NCBI GenBank assembly: GCA_028287185.1 | Contig: JAQBQD010000155.1 | Location: 33,609-97,608 of the forward strand | DNA length: 64,000 nt | Direction of reading: 5' to 3' | DNA from: Gemmatimonadota bacterium | GTDB lineage: Bacteria; Gemmatimonadota; Gemmatimonadetes; Longimicrobiales; Longimicrobiaceae | Shown: one piece after another, positions 41,763 through 59,120 of the stretch | Position numbering within the stretch: position 1 is the first letter of the stretch | How the letters are laid out: every line of letters starts with the position of its first letter | Notes under the pieces: generated by a model | What the model was told of the DNA's origin: nothing | Databases searched by the model: none | The model's input: only the letters and a program-made list of their open reading frames with translations | Translations under genes and position numbers: made by a program

Positions 41763-42833
41763 TTACGCGTATCGACAGATGAGCAGCACGGCCAGCGCGA
41801 ATCCGCAGACGGTGGCGATACCCAGCCCGGTATCCAGCCGCTCCGCGCGGCGCTCCCCAAGGCGGTCGCCCAGGCGGAACACGGCCACGGAGGCGAGGAT
41901 CGAGAGGAAGACCACCGCCATCGCCAGCACGTGCAGCTTGTCCGTGAGGGTGAACTCGCCCGTCTCGGGCAGGCTGCCGGCCGCGACCACGTACGACGAC
42001 ACCACGCCGAACACGCTCGCCAGCCCCAGCCCCAGCCGCGCATCCACCTGCCTCGCGGAGAGCAGGGTGGCGAGAAAGCCGACGCCGACGGAGATGAACA
42101 TCACCAGGAAGGTCTTCAGGAAGATTCCGGCGCCGGGACGGCGAAGCGGGATGCCCAGCTCGAAGTGCGAGTACACCTCGTCCGCCGCGCCGGCCTCCTC
42201 GCTGCCCAGCGGCGGGTACGTGTGGCGTGTGGCGTCCACGCGCGCTGGGTCCAGGATCCAGCCCGGCAGCCGCACCCGGGGGTCCATCAGCGCCCAGCGG
42301 CGGTCGGGCACGTACGTCAGCTCGCGCACCGTGTGCTGTCCGTCCTCCACCATCACCCGCAGCACGTGCGCGTCCAGCGGATAGCGGCGCTGGTCCAGCG
42401 GCTCGTGGAAGCGGTACTGGCACCGGTAGGTGACGGACCTTCCCTTCGGTCCCGTGGACTCCGCCTCCTTGTCCTGCTGCTCGCGCGTGCCGTTCAGGAT
42501 GCTGAACCCGGTGGGGTCCACATCTCCCGTCCACTCGAACCACAGGTCGAAGTCCACGAAGTACGTGCCCGCCTTCAGGTTCACGTCGTACACGTCGCGC
42601 ACGTAGATCCCCACCCGCACCGGCTCCGGCCCGGCTTTCTCCGCCGCGGAAGGCGTCGCCGTCGAAGCCGACTCGCCGCGCCGCTCGACCCGTGCGCTGC
42701 GATCAGATCTCGAAGCAGTCGACGAGGTCTGCACGTCCGCCGGCGCTTGACCACCGAGAGGGGCCGGATGGACGACGAGAAGGAGGGCGGCGGCGAGCGG
42801 AAAGGCGGAACGACGGGCGGCGGAACGGAGCAT
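41763..42833 (-). CDS. Pentameric ligand-gated ion channel (pLGIC/Cys-loop-receptor-like) homolog
   Basis: ATG at 42831-42833; signal peptide MLRSAARRSAFPLAAALLLVVHPAPLGG; about 220-aa extracellular domain with an RYPLDAHVLRVMVEDG loop resembling the F/YPxD Cys-loop core; pre-M1 IPLRRPGAGIF then 4 C-terminal TM helices. Confidence 0.55.
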   Translation of the reverse strand: MLRSAARRSAFPLAAALLLVVHPAPLGGQAPADVQTSSTASRSDRSARVERRGESASTATPSAAEKAGPEPVRVGIYVRDVYDVNLKAGTYFVDFDLWFEWTGDVDPTGFSILNGTREQQDKEAESTGPKGRSVTYRCQYRFHEPLDQRRYPLDAHVLRVMVEDGQHTVRELTYVPDRRWALMDPRVRLPGWILDPARVDATRHTYPPLGSEEAGAADEVYSHFELGIPLRRPGAGIFLKTFLVMFISVGVGFLATLLSARQVDARLGLGLASVFGVVSSYVVAAGSLPETGEFTLTDKLHVLAMAVVFLSILASVAVFRLGDRLGERRAERLDTGLGIATVCGFALAVLLICRYA

Positions 42834-43049
42834 CGGGTCCGTGCGTCGGATGGGATCCGCGTTGGCCTGCGGGGACTGGATCGATCGGAAAGTACCGGTG
42901 GGACCGATGCTGCCCCGGCGATCGGCTGATGATGCCCGACGGCGCCGGACGCCGCCTCGCGCCAACGCCACGCACGATACGCAATGCGGACGATGGGCGC
43001 GAGAGCGGCGTGCTTCGACGGTGGGGCTTGAGTGGATGCGGCGCGCCGG

Positions 43050-43850
43050 CTACTCGGGCGCGGAGAAGCGGGCGAGCATCCCGCGCACGTCCTCCAGCGA
43101 GGCGCCGGGGTGCCGCTCGCGGATGAGCGCCACGATGCCGGCGATGTGCGGCGCCGCGAAGCTGGTGCCGCTGCGGGGGATGCGGCGGCCGCCCAGCCAC
43201 AGCACCGGCACCTCCAGGCCCCAGGCCAGGCACTCCATCGCCTCGTCGGGCCGATACCGGAAGGTGAAGGGAGAGTCGAGCTTGCCCGCGTCCACGCCCA
43301 CCGCGTTCTCGAAGACGGCGGGATAGCTCCAGCCGCCCACGTTGTTGCCCGCGGCCACCACGATGGTGCCCTGCCGCCGCGCGCGCTCGCACAGCACGTA
43401 CAGGTGGTCGCGAGTGTCGTCGCGGGTGGTGCCCAGGCTCATGTTCACCACGTCCACCCGCTCCTCCACCGCCCAGCGCAGCGCCTCGCACAGCACCGAG
43501 GGCGACGTCTCCAGCCCCGCGCCGAACACCCGCGCGGGCAGCACGCGCGCGTCCGGGGCCATGCGCAGGATCTGGTCGGCGCAGGCGGTGCCGTGGCCGT
43601 TACGGTCGCCGTCGTCGTCGCTGCGCCCCAGCGCCAGCTCGTCCGCCGTGCTGGCCAGGCCGATGCCGGGCAGCACGCGCGGCTCCGGCAGCGAGCGGTC
43701 CCACCCGCTGTCGATGACCGCCACCCGCACCCCGCGCCCCGTCGCGTCGCCCAGCTCGCGCGCCACCCACGCCGGCCGCGCCGTGGGCGGCGCCGGCTCG
43801 TACGGAAGCGAGGGAAGGGAGGTCCTCCGCGCGCCCGCCGTGCCGCTCAT
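43050..43850 (-). CDS. lanP: Subtilisin-like S8 serine protease, candidate lanthipeptide leader peptidase LanP
   Basis: ATG (cat 43848-43850) overlaps the HlyD stop (ATGA); catalytic triad motifs VAVIDSG (Asp), HGTACA (His), GTSFAAPH (Ser); 266 aa with no obvious signal peptide. Confidence 0.8.
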   Translation of the reverse strand: MSGTAGARRTSLPSLPYEPAPPTARPAWVARELGDATGRGVRVAVIDSGWDRSLPEPRVLPGIGLASTADELALGRSDDDGDRNGHGTACADQILRMAPDARVLPARVFGAGLETSPSVLCEALRWAVEERVDVVNMSLGTTRDDTRDHLYVLCERARRQGTIVVAAGNNVGGWSYPAVFENAVGVDAGKLDSPFTFRYRPDEAMECLAWGLEVPVLWLGGRRIPRSGTSFAAPHIAGIVALIRERHPGASLEDVRGMLARFSAPE

Positions 43851-45037
43851 TCGGGGCGTCCCTCCATGCGGTCCCACAGGTAGTCCCACACCAGCACGAT
43901 CACCCGGCCGCGGCGGGTCACGATCTGCCCCTCCACCGTGTAGCCGCGCCGGAACTTGTGGATGCCGATGCGGTCCAGCTGGCGCTGGTCCAGTCGCGCC
44001 GTCACCCGGTACAGGCCCCCCGCCTGCGGCACCCCGCCCGCCGCGGCGGCCGGCGACGCGGAGAGCGGCTCGGGGCTCACGTACACCACGCTGCCGCGCA
44101 GGCGCTCGTCCTCGTCGGCGTTGAAGGCCTGCACCTGCACCTGCACCGAGTCGCCGAGGCGGATGCGGTGCACGTCGCGCTCGCGCACCAGCAGGTTCAC
44201 CCGCCACCCGTCCAGGTCGGCCACCTCCAGCAGCTGGTCGCCCTCGCGCACGTAGCTGCCCGGCAGCCGCTCGATCTGCTCGGTCAGCACCACCCCGTGC
44301 GTGGGCGAGCGCAGCGACAACCGGCCCAGACGCTGGCGCAGCGCCGCGATCTGGGCCGTGAGCTGGGCCTGCTCCACCGTCCGCTTGTCGCGGTCGAAGC
44401 GTTCCAGCGCCAGCATGTCGCGCTGCGTGCCCCCCATGCGCACCTCCGACTCGGCGGCGCGCACCTCGGCCACGGCCAGGTCGATCGCCACGTGCTGGCC
44501 CACCCGGTAGGCCGCCAGCAGCGAGTCGGGATCGCTGCCCATCCCGTTCTCCACCATGCGCTGGCGCAGCCCGGCGCGCGCCGTCACCAGGTGGTTGCGC
44601 GCCTGCTCCACCTTCTCGTCCTGCTGCCGCACCTCCACCGGCGCCGCCCGCTCGGCCCGCGCCACGTCGATCTGCGATGCGCGGAGCTGCGCCTCCAGGC
44701 CGTCCAGGGTGGAGGCGAGCGCCAGCGGGTCCAGCCGCACCAGCTCGCGCCCGGCGGACACCGTGTCGCCCGTGCCCACCAGCACGCGGCTCACCGTGCC
44801 CGCCTCCTGCGCGCGCACCGGCCACACGCCCACGGGCTCCATGCTGCCCGCCGCCTTCACCGTCACGTGGATGGACACCAGGCACGCCACGGCCAGCGCC
44901 AGGGCGGTCAGCCCCGCCAGCGTGCCCAGGGTGAGGCCCACGGCGCGCTTCACGAAGCCGGCGCCGGGGTTGCCCTCGTCGCCCAGCGCGGGCAGCTCCA
45001 GCCGCAGGGGCGGCCGGTCCTTCGGCGCCGTGCTCAC
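43847..45037 (-). CDS. HlyD-family membrane fusion (periplasmic adaptor) protein of the lanthipeptide exporter
   Basis: GTG start (cac 45035-45037) overlapping the ABC stop (GTGA); N-terminal TM (AVGLTLGTLAGLTALALAVACLV), long coiled-coil, C-terminal beta domain; the upstream 829-aa six-frame ORF is artefactual. Confidence 0.8.
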   Translation of the reverse strand: MSTAPKDRPPLRLELPALGDEGNPGAGFVKRAVGLTLGTLAGLTALALAVACLVSIHVTVKAAGSMEPVGVWPVRAQEAGTVSRVLVGTGDTVSAGRELVRLDPLALASTLDGLEAQLRASQIDVARAERAAPVEVRQQDEKVEQARNHLVTARAGLRQRMVENGMGSDPDSLLAAYRVGQHVAIDLAVAEVRAAESEVRMGGTQRDMLALERFDRDKRTVEQAQLTAQIAALRQRLGRLSLRSPTHGVVLTEQIERLPGSYVREGDQLLEVADLDGWRVNLLVRERDVHRIRLGDSVQVQVQAFNADEDERLRGSVVYVSPEPLSASPAAAAGGVPQAGGLYRVTARLDQRQLDRIGIHKFRRGYTVEGQIVTRRGRVIVLVWDYLWDRMEGRPE

Positions 45038-46842
45038 GGCGTCTGCGCCACCGCGCGCAGGCGGCGCGCGTCGTCCACGCCGGCGCCCTGCAGCTGTCGG
45101 TAGGTCTCGCACTCCCGCATCAGCTCGGCGTGGGTGCCCGTGCCCACCACCCGGCCGGCCTCCACCACCACGATCTGGTCGGCCAGCGCCGCCGTGGCCA
45201 CGCGGTGGGTCACGAACAGCACCGTGCGCCCCTGGCCGCGGGCGAACAGGTCGCGCAGGATCTCCGTCTCCGTCTGCATGTCCACGTTGCTGGTGGCTTC
45301 GTCCAGCAGCAGCACCGGGGTGTCGCGGATGATGGCCCGCGCGATGGCCAGGCGCTGCCGCTGCCCGCCCGAGAGCGTGGCGCCCCACTCGGCGACGGAG
45401 GTGGCGTACCCGTTGGGCAGCCCCGCCACCAGCTCCTCCAGCCGGCACAGGCGCACGGCGTCGTCCACCCGCTCGCGCGAGGGCTCGTCCGCGCCCATGG
45501 TCAGGTTCTCCCAGATGGTGCCCTGCATGAGCGCGAACTCCTGCCACACCACCGAGGTCTGCCGGCGCAGGTCGGGCAGCGAGATCTTGCTCGCGGGCAC
45601 CCCGTCCAGGTACAGCTGCCCCTCGTCCGGCTCCTCCATGCGCGTCACCAGGCGCAGCAGCGACGACTTCCCGGCGCCGCTGGGGCCCACGATGGAGGTC
45701 ACGGTCCCGCGGGGAAAGTGCAGCGTCACGTCGTGCAGCACCCGCTTCTCGGCCGAGTAGCCGAACGACACGTCGCGCAGGTGGATGTCGCCGCGCATGC
45801 GGTGCGCCACGGGCGGCGCCGGCGCGTAGGCCTGCGCGGGGTCCTGCTCCACGGGCAGGTCCAGGTACTCGAACATGCGCCCCAGGTTCACGGCGCTCTG
45901 CTGGAAGTCCGAGAACAGCCCCGTGATCTGCGCCAGCGGGTTGTACAGGTATCCCATGTACGAGGTGAAGGCGATGTAGTCGCCCAGCGTCATCTCCTGG
46001 CGCAGGATGAGCATCCACGCGTACCACGTGAACACCGCCGTGCCCAGCGCGCGGATGGTGCCGTTGGCCAGCCCGAAGATCTGCCCGAAGCCGCCCGCCT
46101 TGAGCTGCACCTGCAGCGCGTCCTGCATCTGCCGCGCGGCCCGCGTGTACAGGTGGTGCTCCATCGCCAGCGCTTTCAGGGTGCGGATGTGGCTCAGCAC
46201 CTCCACCTGGAAGGCGCCCAGGTCGGCGTACGCCTCGGCGCTCCGCTTCCAGTAGCGGCGCAGCACCCGGGCCGAGAGCGTGGTCACCATCACCGTCAGC
46301 GGGATGGTGATGAGCGACACGATGGCCAGCTTCCACTGCAGGAGGAAGAGGAAGGGCGGCACCAGCAGCAGGTAGACGCCGTTCACGAACAGCGTCTCGA
46401 ACACCTTGCTCACGCTGTTCAGCGAGCTGCGCACGTCGGCGAAGCGGCTCATCACCTCGCCCACCCGATGCTCGTCGAAGAAGCGCACCGTCAGGTGCTG
46501 CAGGTGGTTGAAGAAGAGCAGCCCGGTGGCGTTGGAAAGGTGCGAGGTGGTGTAGGTGGTGAAGTAGCCCCGGATGGCGCCCATCACCGTCCCGGCGATG
46601 GTGAACGCGAAGGTGCCCAGCACCAGCATCTCCATCAGCGGCACGTTGCGCGCCGGGTAGGCCTGGTCGATGAGCAGCTTGGACAGGTACGGCGGAAGCA
46701 TGCCGAACACGCCCAGCACCAGCCCCAGGGCCATCCCCTTCATGAGGGGGCCCCAGTACGGGCGGATCAGCCGCAGCAGCCGGAAGAACTGCTGGAAGGC
46801 TTCCCGCAGCGGCGGGATGTCGGCACGGGCGGCGGGCGGCAT
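45034..46842 (-). CDS. lanT: ABC exporter (fused TMD-NBD, no N-terminal C39 peptidase domain), candidate LanT
   Basis: 602 aa; six TM helices then Walker A GPSGAGKSS, signature LSGGQRQR, Walker B LLLDEATS; absence of a C39 domain is consistent with a separate LanP (class I). Confidence 0.85.
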   Translation of the reverse strand: MPPAARADIPPLREAFQQFFRLLRLIRPYWGPLMKGMALGLVLGVFGMLPPYLSKLLIDQAYPARNVPLMEMLVLGTFAFTIAGTVMGAIRGYFTTYTTSHLSNATGLLFFNHLQHLTVRFFDEHRVGEVMSRFADVRSSLNSVSKVFETLFVNGVYLLLVPPFLFLLQWKLAIVSLITIPLTVMVTTLSARVLRRYWKRSAEAYADLGAFQVEVLSHIRTLKALAMEHHLYTRAARQMQDALQVQLKAGGFGQIFGLANGTIRALGTAVFTWYAWMLILRQEMTLGDYIAFTSYMGYLYNPLAQITGLFSDFQQSAVNLGRMFEYLDLPVEQDPAQAYAPAPPVAHRMRGDIHLRDVSFGYSAEKRVLHDVTLHFPRGTVTSIVGPSGAGKSSLLRLVTRMEEPDEGQLYLDGVPASKISLPDLRRQTSVVWQEFALMQGTIWENLTMGADEPSRERVDDAVRLCRLEELVAGLPNGYATSVAEWGATLSGGQRQRLAIARAIIRDTPVLLLDEATSNVDMQTETEILRDLFARGQGRTVLFVTHRVATAALADQIVVVEAGRVVGTGTHAELMRECETYRQLQGAGVDDARRLRAVAQTP

Positions 46843-47058
46843 CGGCGGAACGTCACTCCAGGGCTTGCGCGGGCGCGGAGGAGCCGGATCGCTCCCGCCG
46901 GGTCCGCGGAGGGCGGCCAGAAACGGCGCGATTCGCCTTTCCGGCCATCATCCAACATAACCAGAACGCTCTCCCACGCACCACTGCCTCCGCGGCGGAG
47001 GACCGGACGTCCGGCGGGAGCCTTCCCGGCCCCGCCGGCGCCCGGTCCCGCGGGCGGC

Positions 47059-47319
47059 TCAGCACTCGCAGGTCTGCGCGCAGGTGAAGCAGGTGGGGCG
47101 GCACGAGATGCCGCACGACTCGTTCGCCTGGCAGGTGTCGACGAGCGTGCAGTCGCCGCACCCGGTGTACGCGCACGACTCCTCGTCCGTGCAGAAGTAG
47201 GTGCTGCACACCCCGTCGCGCGACAGGTGCGCGTGCACCGTCCCGCGCTCCGGCTCCGCCGCCGCCGTCTCGAACGAGTCCACCGACAGCGCGTCCAGGT
47301 CCAGCCTCAGCTTGCGCAT
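47059..47319 (-). CDS. lanA: Lanthipeptide precursor peptide LanA2: FNLD-type leader + very Cys-rich core (12 Cys, 12 Ser/Thr in about 51 aa)
   Basis: ATG at 47317-47319 with gggagg RBS 7 nt upstream; MRKLRLDLDALSVDSFETAAAEPERGTVHAHLSRDGV | CSTYFCTDEESCAYTGCGDCTLVDTCQANESCGISCRPTCFTCAQTCEC; leader resembles nisin/subtilin leaders (FNLDLVSV / FDLDVVKV). Confidence 0.7.
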   Translation of the reverse strand: MRKLRLDLDALSVDSFETAAAEPERGTVHAHLSRDGVCSTYFCTDEESCAYTGCGDCTLVDTCQANESCGISCRPTCFTCAQTCEC

Positions 47320-47348
47320 GCAAACCTCCCGCTCACGGGTGTCCGCGC

Positions 47349-47454
47349 GGGCCGCGGCACCTCCGCGGCCCGAACCGGCCCGCGGTGCCCGCGGGCCTTT
47401 CCGTCCGGCAGGGGAAGGGACGCGGGGCGGGTGGAAAGGCGCCCGCCCCGCGTC
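47349..47454 (-). other. Three consecutive GC-rich stem-loops in the lanA1-lanA2 intercistronic spacer
   Basis: gggccgcgg-cacct-ccgcggccc (47349-47371), ggcccgcgg-tgc-ccgcgggcc (47378-47398), gacgcggggcggg-tggaaaggcg-cccgccccgcgtc (47419-47454); the last one follows the lanA1 stop by about 10 nt. Confidence 0.6.
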
Positions 47455-47464
47455 TCCGAAAAGG

Positions 47465-47761
47465 TCAGACGCAGTCGTACGGGAAGCCGCCGCCGGGCGC
47501 CGCGGCGGCGCCGGGGGCCAGGCCGCAGCCGTTGAAGGTCTCCGGCGGCGACGCGCCGCAGGTGCCGCCGTAGCTGTACCCGCACTGCGCCCACCCCGTG
47601 TCGGGGCACACCTGCACGACCGAGTCCGGACAGTCCGCCGTGTCGCAGAAGGCGGTGCCCACCATCCGGAGCCCCAGCACCGTTCCCCGTCCGCGCCCCG
47701 CCTCCGCCGTCTCGAACGTCTCCACGTTCAGGTCCTCGAGGTCCAGCCGCAGCTTTCTCAT
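47465..47761 (-). CDS. lanA: Lanthipeptide precursor peptide LanA1: FNLD-type leader + Cys/Gly-rich core (7 Cys, 8 Ser/Thr)
   Basis: ATG at 47759-47761 with aaggag RBS; MRKLRLDLEDLNVETFETAEAGRGRGTVLGLRMVG | TAFCDTADCPDSVVQVCPDTGWAQCGYSYGGTCGASPPETFNGCGLAPGAAAAPGGGFPYDCV; first about 28 aa are near-identical to LanA2. Confidence 0.7.
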   Translation of the reverse strand: MRKLRLDLEDLNVETFETAEAGRGRGTVLGLRMVGTAFCDTADCPDSVVQVCPDTGWAQCGYSYGGTCGASPPETFNGCGLAPGAAAAPGGGFPYDCV

Positions 47762-47885
47762 GGGGCTCCTTCCGTTCTGGGTGATGAGGGTACCCGGGCC
47801 TGCAACCTGCCTCCACCGGTTCCGAAGCGCGGCGCGCCCCGACCGACGGCGCTGGACCGGCGGAGGACCGGCCGGGCTCCGGACG

Positions 47886-49907
47886 TCAGCCCGGCACGCC
47901 CGCCCCGGCCGGCTCGCTCTCCACGAACCCGGCGCGGTAGGCCTGCCGAAGCTGCTCCAGCACGCGGCCCCGCAGCCAGTCGCGGTCGGGCGCGCGGTCG
48001 CCGGACACGGCCTCGGCCACGCGGTCCACCACGTCGTCCAGGAGCGCGGAGCCGCGCGTCGCTTCCAGCACCACGGCGGCGAAGGGCGTCAGCCGGCGCT
48101 CCACCACCTTTCCTCCGATGGACTGCAGGAGCACGAACACGTCGTCCTCGGGCGGCAGGGGCTCGCCGGCCGCGTCCTCCAGCCAGCCGTCCCAGTCGCG
48201 GAGGGAGTGGACGAGCCGCGCGCGGGGCGAGAGCGCGAAGGCGGCCTCGTCCCACGCCACCTCGTCCTCCTCCGCGCGCACCAGCGAGGCGATGAACTCC
48301 GCCGTGTTGTCCTCCACCGCCCGCCACAGCTCCACCCGCGCCAGGTCCAGCCGGGCCGCGTCCTCCAGCAGCGCAGCGCGGTCGCCGCCGCCCTCGGCGG
48401 AGATCCGGGCCTTCACGCCGTCGACCGCGGCGGCGACGGGCGAGCGTTCGCGGTTCCCGTCCGCCGCCGCCGCGGCGCGCACGGCGGCGCCATCCGCCCC
48501 CACCGCGGTGAAGGTCCGCAGCGTACGCCCCAGGTAGCCGTCCACGTCGGCCCCGCGGGCCTCGCGGCGGCCGGGCTCGGCCGCCGCGCGGTCGGGGTGC
48601 GCGCCGTCGCGGGTGACGAGGAGGACGGAGGGGACCTCCGGCAGCGCCAGGCGCAGCAGGAACCACCCGATGCCGGACTCGCCCAGCAGCAGGCCGGGGT
48701 CGGAGACTCCTCCCAGGGTGCCGCAGGGCCAGCTCACCCCGGGCCGCTCCCAGCGCTCCACGCCGGTCAGCATGCAGTCCTCCGCCGTCGTCCGCAGCGT
48801 GTCGTCGCCCAGCACGCGCGCGCCGTACAGCAGCGTCTCGCAGTTGCCCGCGCGGCCATGGCAGAGCGAGTAGTTCATCCGGTCGTCCACGATGGAGGCG
48901 AGCGTGGCGCGGAGGGCGGCCTCCGCCTCGTCGCGGTACAGGGGCTCGCCCAGCAGCTCCCACGCGCGCAGCCGGGTGAGGCCGATGCCGGGCGCGCCGT
49001 GGCACCACGCGCTCATGTGGCGCGGCTCGTAGGCGGGAAATCCCTCGGGGCTCGCGATCCGGCGGCGCAGCTCGTCGATGCGGCCGGCGTGCAGGTACTC
49101 GGACAGGTCGCTGTGGCGCAGGTCGGGCCAGTTGTCGTGCTCGGCGCTGAAGGTGCGCCGCTCGTAGACGAAGGCCTGCTCCGCGCCGTGCAGCCAGTGC
49201 CCCTCGCCGGTGGCGTCGTACAGCTCCAGCAGCGCGTGCCCGAAGCCCGCCGCGCCGTGCGCCAGCCCGTTCAGGTTGCGGGCGGACGACTGCGGCATGG
49301 TGGCCCACGACCACCCGTCGGGCTCGCGCACGGCCGTGGCCAGCAGGTTGTCGCCCATGCGCTGCGCCCGCTCCAGCATCCACGCGCCGTCCAGCTCGTC
49401 CGCCATCGCCAGCAGGGCGGGGATGGCGCCCGCCGCGCCGGCGATCACGTCCAGCCCGCGGTCCTGCGCCTCGGCGCCCTCCAGCGGCGCCAGCGTGCGG
49501 CGGGCGGCATCCCGCATCTCCTCCATCCCCAGCAGCTTCGCGGCGCGCAGGGCGGCGTAGGCGATGCCCACGCGGCCCGAGTGGAAGCCGTTCGAGCCGG
49601 GGGGTAGCCCGTCGGCCTCGGCCAGCGAGAAGCGCAGGGCCCCGGCGGCGGCGCGGGCCGCCTCGCGGTCTCCGGTGGCGGCGGCGAGCTGGGCCAGGAA
49701 GAGGGCGATGCCCGCCGTGCCCTCGTAGACGGTGCCCCCGGCGCGGGCGGGCACCGCCACGCGGGCGGCCTGGTTGTCGCGGTCGGGGCTCATCACCTGC
49801 CAGGTGCAGGCGTCGCCCTCCCACAGCGCCTGGGACGCCACGCGCGCGCCGATGCGCGCGGCCGCGTCCAGCAGCGCGCCGCTGCGGGGGTTCTCCGGGT
49901 TGGGCAT
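47886..49907 (-). CDS. lanC: LanC-type lanthipeptide cyclase with about 240-aa C-terminal extension of unknown function
   Basis: ATG at 49905-49907 (MPNPENPRSGALLDAAARIG...); LanC zinc-ligand/active-site motifs GLAHGAAGFGHALLEL, WCHGAPGIGL, LCHGRAGNCE; ORF continues about 240 aa beyond the usual LanC end without any Met. Confidence 0.8.
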   Translation of the reverse strand: MPNPENPRSGALLDAAARIGARVASQALWEGDACTWQVMSPDRDNQAARVAVPARAGGTVYEGTAGIALFLAQLAAATGDREAARAAAGALRFSLAEADGLPPGSNGFHSGRVGIAYAALRAAKLLGMEEMRDAARRTLAPLEGAEAQDRGLDVIAGAAGAIPALLAMADELDGAWMLERAQRMGDNLLATAVREPDGWSWATMPQSSARNLNGLAHGAAGFGHALLELYDATGEGHWLHGAEQAFVYERRTFSAEHDNWPDLRHSDLSEYLHAGRIDELRRRIASPEGFPAYEPRHMSAWCHGAPGIGLTRLRAWELLGEPLYRDEAEAALRATLASIVDDRMNYSLCHGRAGNCETLLYGARVLGDDTLRTTAEDCMLTGVERWERPGVSWPCGTLGGVSDPGLLLGESGIGWFLLRLALPEVPSVLLVTRDGAHPDRAAAEPGRREARGADVDGYLGRTLRTFTAVGADGAAVRAAAAADGNRERSPVAAAVDGVKARISAEGGGDRAALLEDAARLDLARVELWRAVEDNTAEFIASLVRAEEDEVAWDEAAFALSPRARLVHSLRDWDGWLEDAAGEPLPPEDDVFVLLQSIGGKVVERRLTPFAAVVLEATRGSALLDDVVDRVAEAVSGDRAPDRDWLRGRVLEQLRQAYRAGFVESEPAGAGVPG

Positions 49908-49945
49908 GGGGGCCACGCTCGCTTCTCCTGCCGGTGACGGGGGGC

Positions 49946-50917
49946 TCACGCCGTGGCCTCTGCGCCGGCCGGGGCCGGCACCGCCAGGGCGCGGTGGATC
50001 AGGTACGCCAGGTACGACTCCTCCTGGATGCTGACGCCCAGGCGGTTGTTCATCATGTGCACGTAGCTGGGCACGATGGCCGCGACGGCGAACTCCCAGG
50101 TGTCGATCGCCCCGCCCTCGCGAAGCAGTCGCCCGGCGTCGAACAGCTCGCGGAAGCGGACGCGCACCTCCGCCAGGTCGTCGCGCCAGCGGTCCAGCGC
50201 CTCGGAGAGCTCCTCGCCCGTCGCCAGTCGCTCCCAGGCCTCGTCCACGTACGCCGTCAGGTTCCCCGCCTGCTGCTCGAAGCCGCTGCCGAAGGCGTCC
50301 AGCCACGCGCTACGCCGCTCGTCGTCGGGCACCATCGAGCGCAGGTAGTTGATGCCGTACTGCCGCGCGAACTCCGCGGCCGCTGTGCGCTCGGGGTGGA
50401 AGGCGTGCACCAGCACCACCATCGCCAGCAGCCCCTTGCCCAGGCGGCCGCTGCGCTCGGTGGGGTGCACGCGCGCCAGCAGGGCCAGCGCGGCTTCGCT
50501 GGAGCGGTGGAAGAGCTCTTCCGCCAGCAGCACGCCGTCGGGGCCGCCGTAGCGCTCCGTCTCCGGCTCGTACACCGCCTCGGCCACGTGCGTCACCCCC
50601 TCGCCGCCGCTGCCGATGGGCTCCGGATAGCCCTCCTGAAGGTCGGGATACAGGGCCGCCAGGTGCCTGCGCAGCGCGGGCCTCACCTCGCGCTCCAGCA
50701 CGTCGCGCTCGCCGTGGAACCGCAGCCGCACGTGGAAGCCGCGCTCGCTGTAGCGGATGAAGAACCACCGGTCGGCCCACCCGCGCTCGGCGCAGGCGCG
50801 GACGAACGGCTCCACGGCGTCGCGCACGATGGCGTCGCAGTCCCCGCCGTAGATGTTCTCGCGCAGGAACAGGTACTCGCTCAGCCAGGCCTTCTCCATC
50901 TCAGGCGAGGGCGGCAT
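49946..50917 (-). CDS. lanB: Lanthipeptide dehydratase, glutamate-elimination domain (Lant_dehydr_C/SpaB_C-like); stand-alone ORF of a split LanB
   Basis: 323 aa; MPPSPEMEKAWLSEYLF...WFFIRYSERGFHVRLRFHG matches the WF(F/Y)IRY...H(L/V)RLR start of LanB C-terminal domains; overlaps the upstream ORF by 17 nt in a different frame. Confidence 0.75.
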   Translation of the reverse strand: MPPSPEMEKAWLSEYLFLRENIYGGDCDAIVRDAVEPFVRACAERGWADRWFFIRYSERGFHVRLRFHGERDVLEREVRPALRRHLAALYPDLQEGYPEPIGSGGEGVTHVAEAVYEPETERYGGPDGVLLAEELFHRSSEAALALLARVHPTERSGRLGKGLLAMVVLVHAFHPERTAAAEFARQYGINYLRSMVPDDERRSAWLDAFGSGFEQQAGNLTAYVDEAWERLATGEELSEALDRWRDDLAEVRVRFRELFDAGRLLREGGAIDTWEFAVAAIVPSYVHMMNNRLGVSIQEESYLAYLIHRALAVPAPAGAEATA

Positions 50918-53900
50918 GCGCCTCCCCCCGCGCGGGCGCGGCGCCGGCGTTCGCGGTCCCCTCCGGAAAGTCGAGCTGCACCACCATCTCCGTGGCCCAG
51001 CGCCCGCCGGCCACCTCGGCCAGCGCGTCGGGCCCGGGCAGGCGCTCCTCCACGATCACGTTGAAGTGCTTCACCCCCGCGGCCAGCTTGCCCAGCAGCC
51101 CCACCAGCAGCGGGTTGCCAAAGTCCATGAACTGCGGCTTGTAGAAGTCGCGCGACGGCGTGGTCACCTTCACCGGCGGGCCCTTCGCGTCGTCCTCCGC
51201 CTTCGCTCCCTCGGCCTCGGCCGCCTTCGCCGCCTCGGGCTGCTCCGGCTCGTCCGCGGCGGGCATCGCCTCGGCGCCCACGTTCATGGCCGCCTCCTGG
51301 GCGTCCATCGCCGCCGGCGTCTCGTCCCCCGGCTTCTTGGCCGCGGGGTCCGGAATGGGGATCATCCGCACGTAGCAGCTTTCCGGCAGCCCCGCGTCGC
51401 GCCGCCAGCGGGTGGCGCGCACGAAGAAGTCGGCGGCCGTCTCGTCCGCCGCGCGCTGCGGGACGAGGACGCCCGGCACCAGCCACCGCCGCCGGGTCAC
51501 CAGCACCCGCCCGCCTATGGAGATGCGCGGCCGGTGCGAGATCTCCGGCGGGGCAGGGGGCGGCGCCTCGGCCTTCGTCTCCTCGGCGGACGCATCCTCC
51601 GCGGTCGCCGCCTCAGCTCCGGCGTCCGCCGAGGCGATGGAATCCGTGGCCTCGCCGTCCGCCGTCTTCGCGACCCCATCGGACGCAACCACCTGCGCAG
51701 CGGCGGACGCTTCCGGCGCCGCGGCGTCCGCGGTATCGGGAGATGCGACGCCCTCCACGGGGGCGGCCGTATCCGCAGCCGCATCGACCGGCACGCCGTC
51801 GGCCGGCGGAGCCGGGCGCGGCGGGTTGACGGGCGTCTCGGGCACGGACGGCGCGAAGGTGACGGGCGGGGTGAAGCGCGACAGGAGCTGGTACAGCGGC
51901 GGCCGCATGCGCGGGTTCAGGAACCCCAGGTCCACGGGGATCACCCGCCGGCCGCTGGGCCCGTGGCGCAGGGCGAGCGAGTGCGGGTCCTCGGGATCCG
52001 GCTCCACGAACAGGTCCGAGCTGCGGAGCTGGTCGGCCGCGTCGCCGCTCTCGCCCGTGGGGTAGCTGATCTCCCAGCGCATCAACGAGGGGTGCAGGTT
52101 GGCGTTGAACTGCGCATCGCCGCAGATCTCCGCCAGCAGCTCGTCCGTGAGCGCCTGGTTGCCGGCGCGCACCTCCTCCAGGAAGTCTTCCGGCAGCATG
52201 TACAGGAAGCGCGAGAAGTACTTGCCGTACCCCGCGGTGTAGCTGCCGCTCTGCAGCAGGAAGGCGGGGTCGCCCCCCTCCTCGCGCGGGGGCACCAGCA
52301 GGGTGAACGCGCTCACGGAGCGGCACGGCGCCGGCTGCGGCTCGACCCCCGCCAGGGCCTCCTCCACCTCGGCCAGCGGGATCGTGACCTCGGCCGCGTC
52401 GGGCGCCTCGCGCCAGCGCGCCACGATGCGCTCCTGCAGCCGCATGCGCGCCTCGTTGAGCGCCTGGATAAAGGGCAGCTTGAAGGGGTTGTTGACGTCG
52501 TATCCCTCCAGCGCCGCCTTGTCCGCCCCGCCGCGCGCCTTCTGCTCCTTCTCCACGTGCGCCTTGAAGTGCTCGCGGTAGAAGTCCTCGTAGAACTGCA
52601 AAAGCGGCACGCCGTGCCGGTCGCCGTACTGCATGTCGAAGAAGTGCCGCATGGTGGCCTGCTCGGCCCGCGGCCACGCCAGGCGCGAGGTGAGGCGCGC
52701 CCAGTCCACCAGCGCGTCCGTGGCCCGACGCACGCCGGGCGTGAGCGCCACGGTGGCGTCCGCGTCGGCCGTGGCGTCCTCGTAGAACGGCATGTCCTTC
52801 CGCAGGCGGGCCTTCACCTCCATGGCCGTGAACGCCTCGTCGATGGCGGCGTGGATCTCGGCCACCACGGCCTCGCGCCTCTCCACCGGCGCCGCCGCGT
52901 AGGCGTCCGTGCGCTCTCGCACCTGGCGCAGCAGGGCGGCGGCGCGCGTGGCGTGCTCGTCGTCCAGCGCGTCCAGCAGCGCGGCGAAGGGCAGGTCCCA
53001 GTCGGCGTCCTGCTCGCGGATGCCGGTGTGGAAGCGCAGGAAGCCGATCTCGATCAGCTTCTCCAGGTACGCCTCCGCCTCCTCGGTGCTGGCGTCGATC
53101 TGCGGATCGCGCGTCAGCCGGTCCACCAGGTCGCCCAGCGTGGGCGCCGGGTCGGCGGCGAACACCTGCGTGATCACCTGCAGCACCTCGTTGGCGGCCA
53201 CGCGCTGGAACACCTCGCGCCCCTGCACGGCCGACAGGAAGACCAGGCGGGCGCCCTCGGTGCGCAGCGTGGGGTTGGGCTCCACCACCAGCCGCCGCCG
53301 CACGCCGGGCCGCTCCTTGAGGTGATCCAGCAGGATGCCGTACAGCAGCTTGTTGATGCGCACGAAGCTGCGCTTGGCCCGGGGGTCGCCGTGCAGGCGC
53401 AGCAGGCCGCCCTCGCCGTCCTCCGCCGCCCCGTCCTCGGTGAAGCGGCCGGGGACCACGGCGCAGAACGCCGCGAAGGGCGTCGCCTTCATGGCCATGC
53501 GCGTGTAGTAGCGCAGCAGCCCGCGCTCCGTCTTCTCGTCCTTGCCCGAGAGCGCGCCGGCCGTTCCCGCCGTGTAGCGGTCCAGCGACGCGTGCAGCGA
53601 ACGGCTGGACACCAGCAGCCCCTTCCGGAACTCCGGATCGCGCAGCAGCTGGCGGAAGGCCGCCCGGGCCGTTCCGCTCTCCTCGCCGTACGCCGCCGCC
53701 ACCTCCGCCGCCAGCGCGTCGCGCTCCACCAGCGCCTGCTGCAGCGCTCCAACCTCGGATGCCTGCTCGGTGGAGAGCTGCGCGCAGGCGCCTTCCAGCA
53801 CCTCCGCCGGCAGCGGACGCAGGTTGAACAGCTCGCGCCGGGCGCGCAGCAGGCGTTTGCGCGCCGCGCCGTCGTCCCCCGCCGCGCCGATGGCGGCGAA

Positions 53901-54116
53901 CAGCAGGGCCGAGACGGCCTCGCGGCGCTCCGCGAGCGCGTCCTCGGCCGCCAGCAGCGCGTCCAGGCGCTCCAGCGTGCGGGTGGCGCGCATCTGCTCG
54001 ACGCCGTCCACCGGCGCGCCCGAGATCCGGCATACGAAGCGGCGCACCAGGCGCTCGGCCTCCCGCCCGGGGCGGTCCTCGTTCCAGGTGTCGGCGGTCA
54101 CTTCGGCGTTCTCCAT
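50901..54116 (-). CDS. lanB: Lanthipeptide dehydratase, glutamylation domain (Lant_dehydr_N-like) with long Ala/Pro/Asp/Glu-rich low-complexity inserts
   Basis: ATG at 54114-54116 (MENAEVTADTWNEDRPG...); motif YYTRMAMKATPFAAFCAV corresponds to the conserved Y.TRM..R.TPFGLF of LanB; 1071 aa; the upstream part of the 1144-aa six-frame ORF is non-coding-like. Confidence 0.75.
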   Translation of the reverse strand: MENAEVTADTWNEDRPGREAERLVRRFVCRISGAPVDGVEQMRATRTLERLDALLAAEDALAERREAVSALLFAAIGAAGDDGAARKRLLRARRELFNLRPLPAEVLEGACAQLSTEQASEVGALQQALVERDALAAEVAAAYGEESGTARAAFRQLLRDPEFRKGLLVSSRSLHASLDRYTAGTAGALSGKDEKTERGLLRYYTRMAMKATPFAAFCAVVPGRFTEDGAAEDGEGGLLRLHGDPRAKRSFVRINKLLYGILLDHLKERPGVRRRLVVEPNPTLRTEGARLVFLSAVQGREVFQRVAANEVLQVITQVFAADPAPTLGDLVDRLTRDPQIDASTEEAEAYLEKLIEIGFLRFHTGIREQDADWDLPFAALLDALDDEHATRAAALLRQVRERTDAYAAAPVERREAVVAEIHAAIDEAFTAMEVKARLRKDMPFYEDATADADATVALTPGVRRATDALVDWARLTSRLAWPRAEQATMRHFFDMQYGDRHGVPLLQFYEDFYREHFKAHVEKEQKARGGADKAALEGYDVNNPFKLPFIQALNEARMRLQERIVARWREAPDAAEVTIPLAEVEEALAGVEPQPAPCRSVSAFTLLVPPREEGGDPAFLLQSGSYTAGYGKYFSRFLYMLPEDFLEEVRAGNQALTDELLAEICGDAQFNANLHPSLMRWEISYPTGESGDAADQLRSSDLFVEPDPEDPHSLALRHGPSGRRVIPVDLGFLNPRMRPPLYQLLSRFTPPVTFAPSVPETPVNPPRPAPPADGVPVDAAADTAAPVEGVASPDTADAAAPEASAAAQVVASDGVAKTADGEATDSIASADAGAEAATAEDASAEETKAEAPPPAPPEISHRPRISIGGRVLVTRRRWLVPGVLVPQRAADETAADFFVRATRWRRDAGLPESCYVRMIPIPDPAAKKPGDETPAAMDAQEAAMNVGAEAMPAADEPEQPEAAKAAEAEGAKAEDDAKGPPVKVTTPSRDFYKPQFMDFGNPLLVGLLGKLAAGVKHFNVIVEERLPGPDALAEVAGGRWATEMVVQLDFPEGTANAGAAPARGEAHAALA

Positions 54117-54571: not shown

Positions 54572-54862
54572 TTACTGCTCCACCTGCACGCCCTTCCAGA
54601 ACGCCACGTGATCGCGAATGTTCGCGGCGGGGTCCTTCGGCTCCGGGTAGTACCAGGCCGCGTCGCGATTCGTCTCGCCGTCCACCACCACGTCGTAGTA
54701 GCTGGCCGTTCCCTTCCACGGGCAGACGGTCTGCGTGGCGCTGTCGCGAAAGTGCTCGCGGCTCACCGCATCCGGCGGAAAGTAGACGTTGCCCTCCACC
54801 ATCTGCACCCGCTCCTGCGGCGCCTCGGCGATCACGGCGCCCTTCCACGTTGCCTTCGGCAT
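54572..54862 (-). CDS. DUF427-domain protein
   Basis: ATG at 54860-54862: MPKATWKGAVIAEAPQERVQMVEGNVYFPPDAVSREHF...CPWKGTASYYDVVVDGETNRDAAWYYPEPK matches the DUF427 pattern. Confidence 0.6.
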   Translation of the reverse strand: MPKATWKGAVIAEAPQERVQMVEGNVYFPPDAVSREHFRDSATQTVCPWKGTASYYDVVVDGETNRDAAWYYPEPKDPAANIRDHVAFWKGVQVEQ

Positions 54863-55000
54863 GCGACGTTCTCCTGGCCTGTGGATTCGCTGCGGTTCCG
54901 GACCCGTCCGACGCGATTCCACTACGGCGGCGGAAGATGGATGCATCCTGCAACAGTTCATCGTCCACCTCGACGTGCGGCGCTCCTGCGGGAGAGGAAT

Positions 55001-55756: not shown

Positions 55757-55780
55757 GCGGGGCGCGGGGTTCCGGCCGGT

Positions 55781-55888
55781 TCCACAATTGTGGATAACGA
55801 CGGTGGATAAACCTGGGATGTTTCTGTGGAAAATCTGCAACCCAATGTGGGACGCAGGTTTAAGACTGCACACCGCGTTTGTGGAGAA
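55781..55888. promoter_or_regulatory. Cluster of DnaA-box-like 9-mers (candidate oriC element or DnaA-regulated region)
   Basis: TGTGGATAA (55789-55797, perfect DnaA box), GGTGGATAA (55802-55810), TGTGGAAAA (55825-55833), TGTGGAGAA (55880-55888), plus inverted TTCCACA (55781-55787); locally A/T-richer; about 3.5 kb from parAB-mnmG. Confidence 0.5.
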
Positions 55889-56356: not shown

Positions 56357-56368
56357 TCTCTCACGCCC

Positions 56369-57133: not shown

Positions 57134-57230
57134 GCGCCGCTCGTCCCGGTCGCGGGGCTTCGCCACGTCGGCCCGCCTCAGCGCAAAAGCGGGGAATGGA
57201 CCCCGCCCCGGGATGTCGATCCCGCGTCGG

Positions 57231-59032: not shown

Positions 59033-59120
59033 GCTGCTCCTCTGGGTGTGGTCTTGCTGCGGGAGTCGGGAGTGGTTCGCGCAATATAACGCGCGTGCGC
59101 GCGAGGCGTCCAGCGAAGCC

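What the first reader, a model, noticed from the sequence alone, without database searches (positions are those of the whole stretch)
47059..47761. Two divergent, extremely Cys-rich precursor peptides sharing a nisin-like leader
LanA1 (98 aa) and LanA2 (86 aa) share an almost identical N-terminal about 28 aa (MRKLRLDL-D/E-x-L-S/N-V-D/E-S/T-FETA...RGTV). This contains an F/L-x-LDL motif like the FNLD box of nisin, subtilin and epidermin leaders. The cores are unrelated to each other. The LanA2 core has exactly 12 Cys and 12 Ser/Thr in about 51 residues, so up to 12 (methyl)lanthionine rings are possible, with nearly every second residue potentially cross-linked. The LanA1 core is Gly/Pro-rich with 7 Cys and 8 Ser/Thr and ends ...FPYDCV. 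These may be a two-component lantibiotic or two products from one enzyme set. Both have strong RBSs (aaggag, gggagg).
Basis: seen in the sequence. Interest (0 to 1): 0.85.

Follow-up and report, generated by a model that had tools for sequence, protein, structure and literature searches.

The report
Cys-dense lanthipeptide precursors, Longimicrobiaceae gene cluster
Two small genes in an uncultured soil bacterium (Gemmatimonadota) encode real precursors of ring-forming lanthipeptides; one could carry up to 12 sulfur bridges, against 3-7 in the nisin/geobacillin group of one published survey, but the biosynthetic type itself is already known.

Summary
Two minus-strand ORFs (47465-47761, 98 aa; 47059-47319, 86 aa) share 19 of their first 28 residues and have unrelated cores rich in Cys, Ser and Thr.

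They lie in a complete class I lanthipeptide operon. It holds a split LanB (glutamylation and elimination proteins), LanC, the two precursors, an ABC exporter, a HlyD-type protein and a cytoplasmic S8 protease.

The leader is closest to NCBIfam's pinensin leader model, not to nisin. Only an LxLD box recalls nisin's FNLD. It defines a family of more than 1,500 peptides; every member that carries an organism name is from Longimicrobium, Longimicrobiaceae or this MAG.

Both ORFs are conserved in syntenic genomes. The LanA2 core shows 9 synonymous and 2 conservative changes, while its leader drifts. Across the family, Ser+Thr is at least Cys in 98.5% of cores, [ST]C and [ST]xxxxC are strongly enriched, and CC/CxC/CxxC are depleted. 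All 12 LanA2 Cys can pair with a donor 3-7 residues upstream.

Several products from one enzyme set fits better than a two-component pair. The cyclase also carries a C-terminal domain that looks like a leader-binding RRE.

Verdict: a new variant of a known kind, uncharacterised. Modification, ring topology and activity are all inferred.

The parts
47465..47761 (-). lanA1: 98-aa precursor. Predicted leader is residues 1-31 (about 47669-47761). The core holds the family-invariant motif DTGWxQCGYSYGGTCGASPP and a C-terminal P..CV.
   Evidence: ORF and RBS. GC3 0.95. Eleven-member family alignment A1 with invariant core columns. Orthologues in L001, L002 and L013-L017.
47059..47319 (-). lanA2: 86-aa precursor. 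Predicted leader is residues 1-31 (about 47227-47319). The 55-residue core has 12 Cys and 13 Ser/Thr, many in an [ST]C-x-x-[ST]C pattern.
   Evidence: ORF and RBS. GC3 0.99. NF038180 leader_pinensin E=5.8e-4. The L001/L002 orthologue core differs by only 2 conservative changes against 9 synonymous ones. A 12/12 Cys-donor pairing is possible.
47320..47464 (-). lanA1-lanA2 spacer with three strong GC-rich RNA hairpins, the first directly after the lanA1 stop. Possibly a transcript-stabilising or attenuating structure.
   Evidence: MFE -97.5 kcal/mol, z = -4.0 against shuffles. No U-tract terminator by consensus scan.
47886..49949 (-). lanC: cyclase of about 687 aa. It has a LanC-like domain with the Zn-ligand motifs (H231, C316, C363/H364) and a conserved C-terminal extension of about 245 aa.
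   Evidence: PF05147 E=1e-54. Best NCBIfam match is the cyclase part of LanM, TIGR03897. Motifs. GTG start overlaps the lanB-C stop. Extension conserved in orthologues.
47886..48215 (-). C-terminal domain of LanC with an RRE-like (PqqD-like winged-helix) fold: a beta-hairpin followed by three helices. Proposed leader-binding module.
49946..50917 (-). lanB-C: stand-alone LanB elimination domain (about 317-323 aa).
   Evidence: PF14028 E=7.5e-47. TIGR03891 122.7 bits, above its cut-off of 48.45.
50901..54116 (-). lanB-N: LanB glutamylation protein (about 1071 aa from ATG 54116).
   Evidence: PF04738 E=5.5e-47 and no PF14028. Start candidates. 70% identical orthologue in L001.
45034..46842 (-). 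ABC exporter (602 aa; transmembrane domain plus ATPase, no C39 peptidase domain).
   Evidence: PF00664 and PF00005; the match begins at the membrane domain. 88% identical orthologue in L001.
43847..45037 (-). HlyD-family membrane-fusion protein, partner of the ABC exporter.
   Evidence: PF16576 and PF13437. Conserved after the ABC gene in all related loci.
43050..43850 (-). S8 subtilisin-like protease (266 aa) with catalytic D47/H86/S230 and no signal peptide. Proposed leader peptidase (LanP-like, cytoplasmic).
   Evidence: PF00082 E=1.4e-24. Motifs and N-terminus. ATGA start/stop overlap with the HlyD gene. Conserved in all related loci.

Best explanation
LanA1 and LanA2 are genuine precursor peptides of a class I lanthipeptide pathway of the pinensin type, in a Longimicrobiaceae-like (Gemmatimonadota) genome.

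Inferred mechanism, step by step:
1. The shared 28-31-residue leader (M-R-K-L-R-L-x-L-D-x-L-x-V-E/D-S/T-F-E-T ... R-G-T-V) docks each precursor onto the enzymes. Docking would use an LxLD-type recognition box and probably also the RRE-like domain fused to the C-terminus of LanC.
2. LanB-N glutamylates core Ser and Thr using Glu-tRNA.
3. The separate LanB-C eliminates glutamate, giving dehydroalanine and dehydrobutyrine.
4. The Zn-dependent LanC adds each Cys thiol to a dehydro residue a few positions upstream, usually five.
5. In LanA2 the [ST]C-x-x-[ST]C spacing allows all 12 Cys to be used. This would give a continuous chain of overlapping rings over about 50 residues.
6. In LanA1, six of seven Cys have a nearby donor, arranged around the invariant motif CGYSYGGTCGASPP.
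7. The cytoplasmic S8 protease removes the leader, most likely after the third residue beyond GTV (V at P4, G/A at P2). That is after H31 in LanA2 and after L31 in LanA1.
8. The ABC exporter and the HlyD protein export the products.

The two peptides are best read as two of several alternative substrates of one tolerant enzyme set.

Shown here: the genes, domains, catalytic motifs, conservation, selection pattern and family statistics.
Inferred: every chemical step, the ring topology, the cleavage site and the biological activity.
For: Cluster content:
- Lant_dehydr_N, a stand-alone Lant_dehydr_C, LANC_like, ABC, HlyD and S8 all lie on the same strand.
- Catalytic and Zn-ligand motifs are present.

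Leader family:
- NF038180 leader_pinensin hits LanA2 (E=5.8e-4) and 74 of 134 family members (best 4.5e-8).
- The leader profile finds 1,507 short peptides with E<=1. Every named one among the 120 listed is from Longimicrobium or this MAG, and two are annotated as pinensin family lanthipeptide.
- Split LanB and a LanM-like LanC are the published hallmarks of the pinensin type (PMC7268733).

Conservation:
- The same operon in the same chromosomal context occurs in L001 and L002, with both precursors.
- For LanA2, the core has 9 synonymous and 2 non-synonymous changes, the leader 3 and 10. The enzymes are 68-75% identical and the ABC exporter 88%.
- LanA1 family alignment has invariant core columns.

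Thioether logic across 134 cores:
- Ser+Thr is at least Cys in 98.5% of cores. r = 0.76, and the partial correlation given length is 0.46.
- [ST]C z = 16.8; [ST]xxxxC z = 14.1; CC, CxC and CxxC are depleted.
- 765 of 819 Cys can be paired 1:1 with a donor 2-7 residues upstream, against 471 after shuffling.
- LanA2 pairs 12 of 12.

Protease site:
- G-T-V-x-[GA]-[HN] is near-invariant.
- It parallels the S8 recognition sequences GDVQAE (CylA), NDVNPE (LicP) and (D/E-5)(L/V-4)xx(Q-1) of the cytoplasmic ElxP (PMC10885120).

RRE on LanC.
Against: - No experimental data exist. Nothing shows that the peptides are expressed, dehydrated or cyclised.
- Both window peptides fall below the curated cut-off of NF038180 (19.7 bits against 24; LanA1 has no hit).
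- There is no significant similarity to nisin-group leaders.
- Twelve overlapping rings made by one cyclase is without precedent among the characterised peptides I could find. Some Cys may stay free or form disulfides.
- LanA1's C-terminal Cys has no nearby donor.
- The cleavage site rests on analogy only, and LanA1 has Leu where most members have His or Asn.
- The RRE assignment for the window protein rests on a single-sequence model of moderate confidence and on hits in homologues. The window copy itself has no significant Pfam hit.
- No immunity genes were recognised in the cluster.
Confidence: 0.85

Rival explanations
1. LanA1 and LanA2 form an obligate two-component lantibiotic: two different mature peptides that act only together, or synergistically, on a target.
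For: The two types sit side by side and are co-conserved in three syntenic loci: the window, L001 and L002. Both cores are under constraint.
Against: - LanA1-type peptides occur in L013-L017 with other partner sets and without any LanA2-type core. Those sets hold 2-4 further leader-bearing precursors, including duplicated LanA1 types.
- L001 has a third precursor.
- The LanA2 core type was found only in the window, L001 and L002.
- From my own knowledge, the known two-component lantibiotics are class II, usually with one LanM per peptide. Here there is one class I enzyme set.
Confidence: 0.12
2. The peptides are exported Cys-rich peptides in which most Cys are not in thioethers. Instead they form disulfides or bind metals as free thiolates (metallothionein-like or metallophore-like), with only a few lanthionines.
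For: - Cys density is very high, 12 of 55 residues in the LanA2 core.
- Pinensins, the named relatives, bind Zn(II) with nanomolar affinity (PMC13532221).
- Many family members would start with x-[GA]-His if cut right after GTV.
- L001 and L002 have a CsoR-type metal repressor gene a few genes downstream.
Against: - CC, CxC and CxxC are strongly depleted in the family (z = -9.6, -4.6, -5.0). From my own knowledge, these are the spacings typical of metal-thiolate clusters.
- Ser/Thr tracks Cys one-for-one and sits at i-5 and i-1.
- A complete dehydratase and cyclase set is encoded next door.
- Zn binding by pinensin was attributed to His residues, not to thiols.
Confidence: 0.1
3. The stand-alone Lant_dehydr_C-like protein is not an eliminase but a [4+2] cycloaddition enzyme, as in thiopeptides and pyritides. 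The products would then be pyridine-containing macrocycles rather than lanthipeptides.
For: The protein matches TIGR03891 (thiopeptide-type bacteriocin biosynthesis protein) and weakly matches the TbtD/PbtD pyridine synthase model. The literature notes this possibility for extra elimination-like domains (PMC7268733).
Against: - The TbtD/PbtD score is 54 bits against a cut-off of 325.
- LanB-N has no elimination domain of its own, so this protein is needed for elimination.
- A LanC cyclase with intact Zn ligands is present.
- No YcaO or azole-forming genes are in the operon.
- The cores are Cys-rich with matching Ser/Thr.
Confidence: 0.03
4. The two ORFs are chance open frames in GC-rich DNA or decayed remnants, and are not expressed as functional peptides.
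For: In NCBI they are annotated only as hypothetical proteins. High-GC DNA yields many spurious ORFs.
Against: - Third-position GC is 0.95 and 0.99.
- Both have Shine-Dalgarno sites.
- Orthologues sit in syntenic loci.
- Changes in the LanA2 core are mostly synonymous.
- The leader family has more than 1,500 members.
Confidence: 0.01

Closest known systems
Pinensin A/B system of Chitinophaga pinensis (class I lanthipeptide; NCBIfam NF038180 'pinensin family lanthipeptide' leader)
   Same: - Split LanB, with glutamylation and elimination on separate proteins.
- A LanC whose closest relatives are the cyclase domains of LanM.
- A Gram-negative producer.
- A leader that matches the same NCBIfam model: 74 of 134 family members, and LanA2 at E=5.8e-4.
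   Different: - Different phylum (Gemmatimonadota, not Bacteroidota).
- Both window peptides score below the model's cut-off.
- The leader ends in an invariant G-T-V-x-[GA]-[HN] junction. The Bacteroidetes leaders described in PMC7268733 have an LxLxKx5L motif, often with a Gly-Gly end and a C39 protease. Here an S8 protease is encoded instead.
- The cores are much longer and far richer in Cys. Pinensins are about 2 kDa.
- I could not retrieve the pinensin precursor or PinC sequences, so direct identity and the presence of an RRE on PinC were not tested.
Nisin / subtilin / epidermin group (canonical class I lantibiotics)
   Same: - Same chemistry is expected: a tRNA-dependent LanB and a Zn-dependent LanC.
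- A leader with a short hydrophobic-x-L-D box (FNLD there, LxLD here).
- Overlapping rings built from a [ST]C dipeptide, as in nisin rings D and E (my own knowledge).
- An S8 LanP protease.
   Different: - No detectable leader homology (hhalign probability 0.4%).
- No hit to nisin/gallidermin family models.
- By eye, neither core holds the lipid II motifs SxxxCTP(G/S)C or TxTxEC quoted. No regex check was run.
- LanB is split.
- The cyclase carries an extra RRE-like domain.
- 12 possible rings, against 3-7 bridges listed for this group in PMC11251773.
Prochlorosin-type systems (one promiscuous synthetase, many precursors with a conserved leader and hypervariable cores)
   Same: The logic is the same: a conserved leader, very diverse cores, and several precursors per locus served by one enzyme set.
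   Different: Those are class II (LanM) systems of cyanobacteria with a different leader type (my own knowledge). Here the system is class I with a split LanB. In addition, particular cores (the LanA1 motif and the LanA2 core) are strongly conserved rather than freely variable.
RRE (PqqD-like) leader-binding domains of lasso-peptide B1 proteins (TbiB1, TfuB1), PqqD, and the RRE inside LanB/TbtB
   Same: The C-terminal domain of this LanC has the same beta-hairpin plus three-helix topology. Its best structural matches are these proteins. Homologues hit Pfam PqqD and NGO1945_C.
   Different: Here the domain is fused to a LanC cyclase. I did not find that arrangement described in the papers searched. 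Binding of the leader has not been tested.

Membership tests
Class I lanthipeptide precursor (LanA) | Small gene clustered with separate LanB dehydratase and LanC cyclase genes | tested here: met
   PF04738 and PF14028 (split LanB) and PF05147 lie directly upstream on the same strand. The same arrangement occurs in L001 and L002.
Class I lanthipeptide precursor (LanA) | N-terminal leader with an FxLD-type recognition box | tested here: inconclusive
   L-x-L-D is present and conserved in the family. LxLD is listed as a tolerated variant of FxLD (PMC12710340). However, profile-profile comparison with nisin-group leaders is not significant.
Class I lanthipeptide precursor (LanA) | Core with Cys and Ser/Thr in ring-compatible number and spacing | tested here: met
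   LanA2 pairs 12 of 12 Cys and LanA1 6 of 7 with an upstream donor. Family-wide, 765 of 819 Cys pair, against 471 after shuffling. Ser+Thr is at least Cys in 98.5% of cores.
Class I lanthipeptide precursor (LanA) | Dehydration and thioether formation demonstrated in the product | not testable with these tools
   Needs mass spectrometry or NMR of the modified peptide.
Pinensin family lanthipeptide (NCBIfam NF038180 leader_pinensin) | Score at or above the curated cut-off (24 bits) of the leader model | tested here: not met
   LanA2 scores 19.7 bits (E=5.8e-4). LanA1 has no hit at E<=1. 74 of 134 relatives match at E<=0.01, best 4.5e-8, and two are so named by NCBI. The window peptides are therefore divergent relatives, not members by the curated rule.
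Pinensin-type class I cluster | [quoted passage not shown] | tested here: met
   The roughly 1071-aa protein has only PF04738. A separate 323-aa protein has PF14028 and TIGR03891. The feature is described in PMC7268733.
Pinensin-type class I cluster | LanC related to the cyclase domain of class II LanM | tested here: met
   The best NCBIfam match of LanC is TIGR03897 LanM, profile positions 540-930, 264 bits. The feature is described in PMC7268733. No phylogeny was made.
Nisin/gallidermin-type lantibiotic | Match to a nisin/gallidermin family model | tested here: not met
   No Pfam or NCBIfam hit of that kind at E<=1.
Nisin/gallidermin-type lantibiotic | [quoted passage not shown] | tested here: not met
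   Judged by eye only, comparing both cores with the motif as quoted. No regex check was run.
Two-component lantibiotic | Two peptides that always co-occur, usually each with its own LanM, and act in synergy | tested here: not met
   No LanM is present and there is a single enzyme set. LanA1-type peptides occur without LanA2-type partners in L013-L017. Synergy itself cannot be tested here.
RiPP recognition element (RRE, PqqD-like) for the LanC C-terminal domain | Winged-helix fold of a beta-sheet plus three helices, with sequence or structure similarity to known RREs | tested here: inconclusive
   [not shown]
LanP-type S8 leader peptidase | Subtilase domain with a D/H/S triad, encoded in the cluster | tested here: met
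   PF00082 E=1.4e-24. D47, H86 and S230 are present and there is no signal peptide. The gene is conserved in all related loci. Cleavage of the leader was not tested.

The most novel reading that the evidence does not exclude
LanA2-type peptides, and the 21-Cys relative in L001, are matured into a new lanthipeptide topology. It would be an uninterrupted ladder of overlapping (methyl)lanthionine rings built on a period-4 [ST]C-x-x-[ST]C repeat, with 12 rings in about 50 residues here. A single cyclase that carries its own leader-binding RRE would install them. This would be far beyond the ring number of any characterised lanthipeptide I could find, and it would be a distinct scaffold class with unknown activity.
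Probability: 0.3. Interest if true: 0.75.

Novelty: new variant of a known kind. Interest (0 to 1): 0.55.

Why it matters
- In the library I searched I found no report of a characterised lanthipeptide from Gemmatimonadota. This leader defines a pool of more than 1,500 uncharacterised precursors, seen mostly in metagenome assemblies.
- If the predicted cross-linking is real, LanA2 and its relatives would push the known limit of thioether density. They would also show how a single LanC controls a dozen overlapping rings.
- The RRE-like domain on the cyclase, if confirmed, would change the picture of leader recognition in class I systems. From my own knowledge, only LanB is known to carry an RRE there.
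- The near-frozen LanA2 core next to a drifting leader points to a specific molecular target, which makes the peptide a reasonable candidate for expression and activity screening.

Tried and rejected
- Nisin-type homology of the leader. No family-model hit.
- Lipid II motifs as quoted (SxxxCTP(G/S)C and TxTxEC). Not seen in either core by eye.
- Promoter and terminator consensus scan of 46800-48000. Nothing found.
- Leader-only profile as a search query.
- Structure of the whole 244-aa LanC extension. Too low in confidence to use (pLDDT 44.7). Only the last 109 aa gave a usable model.
- Structure prediction with an alignment of orthologues from loci.
- Profile searches of PDB sequences with the LanC C-terminal domain. 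Only designed helical proteins came back.
- Pfam on the N-terminal 158 aa and C-terminal 329 aa of LanB-N. No domain found.
- Literature searches for earlier descriptions. Queries covered Longimicrobium or Gemmatimonadota lanthipeptides, Cys-rich class I peptides and LanC-RRE fusions. Nothing specific turned up. One paper on Pedobacter ring patterns was not held.
- Metagenome scan with LanA2. Only three leader-level relatives and no further LanA2-type cores.
- Metallothionein-like reading. Rejected because CC, CxC and CxxC are depleted.
- Thiopeptide or pyritide reading. Rejected because the TbtD/PbtD score is far below its cut-off and there is no YcaO.
Full report
**1.

On the minus strand there are two ATG-initiated ORFs, 47465..47761 (98 aa, LanA1) and 47059..47319 (86 aa, LanA2). 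Their first 28 residues are 19/28 identical (MRKLRLDL..L.V..FETA.A...RGTV), and the rest is unrelated.

After RGTV, LanA2 has 12 Cys and 13 Ser/Thr in 58 residues. LanA1 has 7 Cys, 8 Ser/Thr, 13 Gly and 7 Pro in 70 residues and ends FPYDCV.

Both ORFs have Shine-Dalgarno sequences: GGAAGGAG 4 nt before the lanA1 ATG and GGGAGG 5 nt before the lanA2 ATG. Third-position GC is 0.95 and 0.99, the same as in the neighbouring real genes.

**2. The surroundings form a complete class I lanthipeptide operon**

All genes are on the minus strand, in this order:
- A LanB glutamylation protein (50901..54116; PF04738 only).
- A stand-alone LanB elimination protein (49946..50917; PF14028 and TIGR03891).
- A LanC-like cyclase (47886..49949; PF05147). 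Its best NCBIfam match is the cyclase part of LanM.
- lanA1, then lanA2.
- An ABC exporter without a peptidase domain (45034..46842).
- A HlyD-type membrane-fusion protein (43847..45037).
- A 266-aa S8 subtilase with no signal peptide (43050..43850).

LanC has the expected His and Cys/Cys-His zinc-ligand motifs, and the protease has its D/H/S triad.

Upstream lie housekeeping genes: DUF427, NIF3, bactofilin, an M23 peptidase, parA and mnmG.

**3. Origin and relatives**

Both peptides are identical to hypothetical proteins of a Gemmatimonadetes MAG, JWM27_3514 and JWM27_3515.

Two long JGI contigs, L001 and L002, carry the same operon in the same chromosomal context, with orthologues of both precursors. 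A scan of species-representative genomes with LanC found ten further loci, all in Longimicrobium or Longimicrobiaceae MAGs.

Protein identities between the window and L001 are 68-75% for the enzymes, 88% for the ABC exporter and 78-82% for the flanking housekeeping genes.

**4. Selection on the two peptides**

LanA1 belongs to an 11-member family with an invariant core block, DTGWxQCGYSYGGTCGASPP, and a C-terminal P..CV.

The LanA2 core is almost frozen. Against L001 it has 9 synonymous and only 2 non-synonymous changes (both Asp/Glu swaps), while its leader has 3 synonymous and 10 non-synonymous changes. This is clear purifying selection on the mature part, with every Cys, Ser and Thr kept. 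The spurious-ORF reading is therefore excluded.

**5. The leader defines a large family**

A profile of the leader plus 15 core residues retrieves 1,507 proteins with E<=1 from 5.8 billion. The best 120 are peptides of 54-114 aa. They share three parts:
- the leader M[KR]KL[RK]LxLDALxVESFxT....RGTV;
- a junction x-[GA]-[HN];
- hypervariable cores with 2-15 Cys.

Every named member is from Longimicrobium or this MAG, and two are annotated by NCBI as pinensin family lanthipeptide. The NCBIfam model NF038180 (leader_pinensin) hits 74 of 134 members at E<=0.01, best 4.5e-8. LanA2 scores 19.7 bits, below the 24-bit cut-off, and LanA1 gives no hit.

Split LanB and a LanM-like LanC are exactly the features reported for the pinensin type (PMC7268733). 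The closest known system is therefore pinensin, not nisin.

A profile-profile comparison with nisin-group leaders aligns only three columns, xLD to NLD, with probability 0.4%. A recent survey of RRE recognition sequences lists LxLD as a tolerated variant of FxLD (PMC12710340).

**6. Are the Cys meant for thioethers?**

Across 134 cores:
- Ser+Thr is at least Cys in 98.5% of cores.
- The two counts correlate, r = 0.76, and 0.46 after removing length.
- The dipeptide [ST]C occurs 322 times against 148 expected (z = 16.8).
- [ST]xxxxC occurs 277 times against 134 expected (z = 14.1).
- CC, CxC and CxxC are depleted (z = -9.6, -4.6, -5.0).

The underlying motif is [ST]C-x-x-[ST]C.

A bipartite matching asks whether each Cys can have its own Ser/Thr 2-7 residues upstream. 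It pairs 765 of 819 Cys, with 88 of 134 cores fully paired. After shuffling, only 471 Cys and 5 cores pair.

- LanA2: all 12 Cys can be paired, at offsets 5, 4, 5, 6, 5, 5, 7, 5, 5, 4, 5 and 3. Each ring then overlaps the next through the [ST]C dipeptide. From my own knowledge, this is how nisin rings D and E are arranged.
- LanA1: 6 of 7 Cys pair. The C-terminal Cys97 has no nearby donor.
- A third precursor in L001 (9369-9755): 21 Cys and 21 Ser/Thr in near-perfect period-4 repeats, all pairable.

These statistics support the lanthionine reading and argue against a metallothionein-like one. They do not show which rings actually form. For comparison, a published survey lists 3-7 bridges for the nisin/geobacillin group (PMC11251773).

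**7. Leader removal and export (inferred)**

G-T-V is invariant. The next residues are x, then G or A in 134 of 134 members, then His (71) or Asn (37).

S8 leader peptidases of lanthipeptides recognise GDVQAE (CylA), NDVNPE (LicP) and (D/E-5)(L/V-4)xx(Q-1) (ElxP, which is cytoplasmic) (PMC10885120). By analogy, Val would be P4 and the cut would fall after the third residue beyond GTV:
- GTVHAH|LSRDG... in LanA2, giving a 55-residue core;
- GTVLGL|RMVG... in LanA1.

The protease has no signal peptide, so cleavage would happen before export through the ABC/HlyD pair. An outer-membrane partner is not encoded here.

**8. One enzyme set, several substrates**

- L001 has three precursors.
- L013 and L014 have four leader-bearing precursors.
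- L015 has three and L016 four, including one or two LanA1 types.
- L017 has three, two of them LanA1 types.
- L004 has two other types.
- L005, L006 and L010 share a 53-aa type that lacks the GTV junction.

LanA2-type cores were found only in the window, L001 and L002. This favours 'several products from one tolerant enzyme set' over an obligate two-component pair. Synergy cannot be excluded.

**9. A side finding that bears on mechanism**

LanC is about 687 aa, with a conserved extension of about 245 aa. The extension occurs in 162 cluster representatives (E<=0.001), almost always at residues about 440-670 of proteins of 650-700 aa. All ten tested have a LanC domain in front, and one also has an S8 domain fused behind.

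- TbtB and MibB, which carry RREs, further down the list.

Foldseek also ranks TbiB1 first. Among 41 divergent homologues, the Pfam families hit most often are NGO1945_C (18, best E 9e-8) and PqqD (15, best E 1.6e-5). From my own knowledge, NGO1945_C is an RRE-like partner domain of MNIO enzymes.

The window copy itself gives no significant Pfam hit, and PDB sequence-profile searches found nothing. I rate the RRE assignment as probable, not proven. I found no description of a LanC-RRE fusion in the papers searched.

**10. Verdict**

The finding is real and correctly recognised as lanthipeptide precursors. It is a divergent branch of a known kind (class I, pinensin-type, split LanB), and standard genome-mining tools would flag the cluster.

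Four things go beyond the ordinary:
- the cross-link density and the periodic [ST]C-x-x-[ST]C architecture;
- the unusually frozen LanA2 core;
- the probable RRE on the cyclase;
- the size of the untouched, so far Longimicrobium-associated, family.

None of the chemistry has been shown. Interest 0.55; novelty: new variant of a known kind.

Noticed in passing
[not shown]
   Followed up: yes
L001:9369-9755 (+): A third precursor sits in the syntenic locus (128 aa as called; 127 aa from the second Met). It has 21 Cys and 21 Ser/Thr in near-perfect period-4 repeats (..CDATCGTCDASCYGTCYASCNGTC..). Every Cys can be paired with a donor 4-7 residues upstream. It is absent from the window.
   Followed up: partly
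window 47320-47464 (minus strand transcript): The 145-nt spacer between lanA1 and lanA2 folds into three long GC-rich hairpins (MFE -97.5 kcal/mol, z = -4.0). The first comes right after the lanA1 stop codon. There is no U-tract. I did not check whether they are conserved in L001 and L002.
   Followed up: partly
protein P0234 (906 aa, from the representative search with the LanC extension): One homologue has LanC, the extension and an S8 subtilase fused in a single protein. This supports a functional link between the cyclase and the leader peptidase.
   Followed up: no
protein P0023 (JWM27_3724, 69 aa; another contig of the same MAG): The same organism encodes at least one more peptide with this leader, elsewhere in its genome (..RGTVQGNAYPTQSCPGASCLPTCG..CCV). 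The window cluster is therefore not its only locus of this family.
   Followed up: no
L005:8227-8388, L006:3986-4147, L010:9545-9706: Three Longimicrobium loci share a short 53-aa precursor. It has the LxLDALRVESF leader but no GTV junction, and a conserved core FASGRSCRDACPTRDRLCLDTSTC. It may be processed differently.
   Followed up: no
window 50901-51890 and 53643-54116 (lanB-N, minus strand): LanB-N is as long as a full-length LanB (about 1071 aa). However, its first 158 or so and last 329 or so residues match no Pfam family. The function of these regions is unknown.
   Followed up: partly
window 54572-61116 and L001:1-2433, L002:1-1913: The cluster sits next to origin-region housekeeping genes: mnmG/gidA, parA, an M23 peptidase, bactofilin, NIF3 and DUF427. 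The part from M23 (L001) or bactofilin (L002) to DUF427 is kept in the same order in L001 and L002. The operon therefore looks vertically inherited in this lineage rather than recently acquired.
   Followed up: partly
window 41763-42971 (minus strand); L001:15162-15993: Downstream of the protease the synteny breaks. The window has a membrane protein with a weak ligand-gated-ion-channel match. L001 and L002 instead have MamF/MmsF-like and CsoR-type metal-repressor genes. Any link to the peptides, such as immunity or metal sensing, is untested.
   Followed up: no
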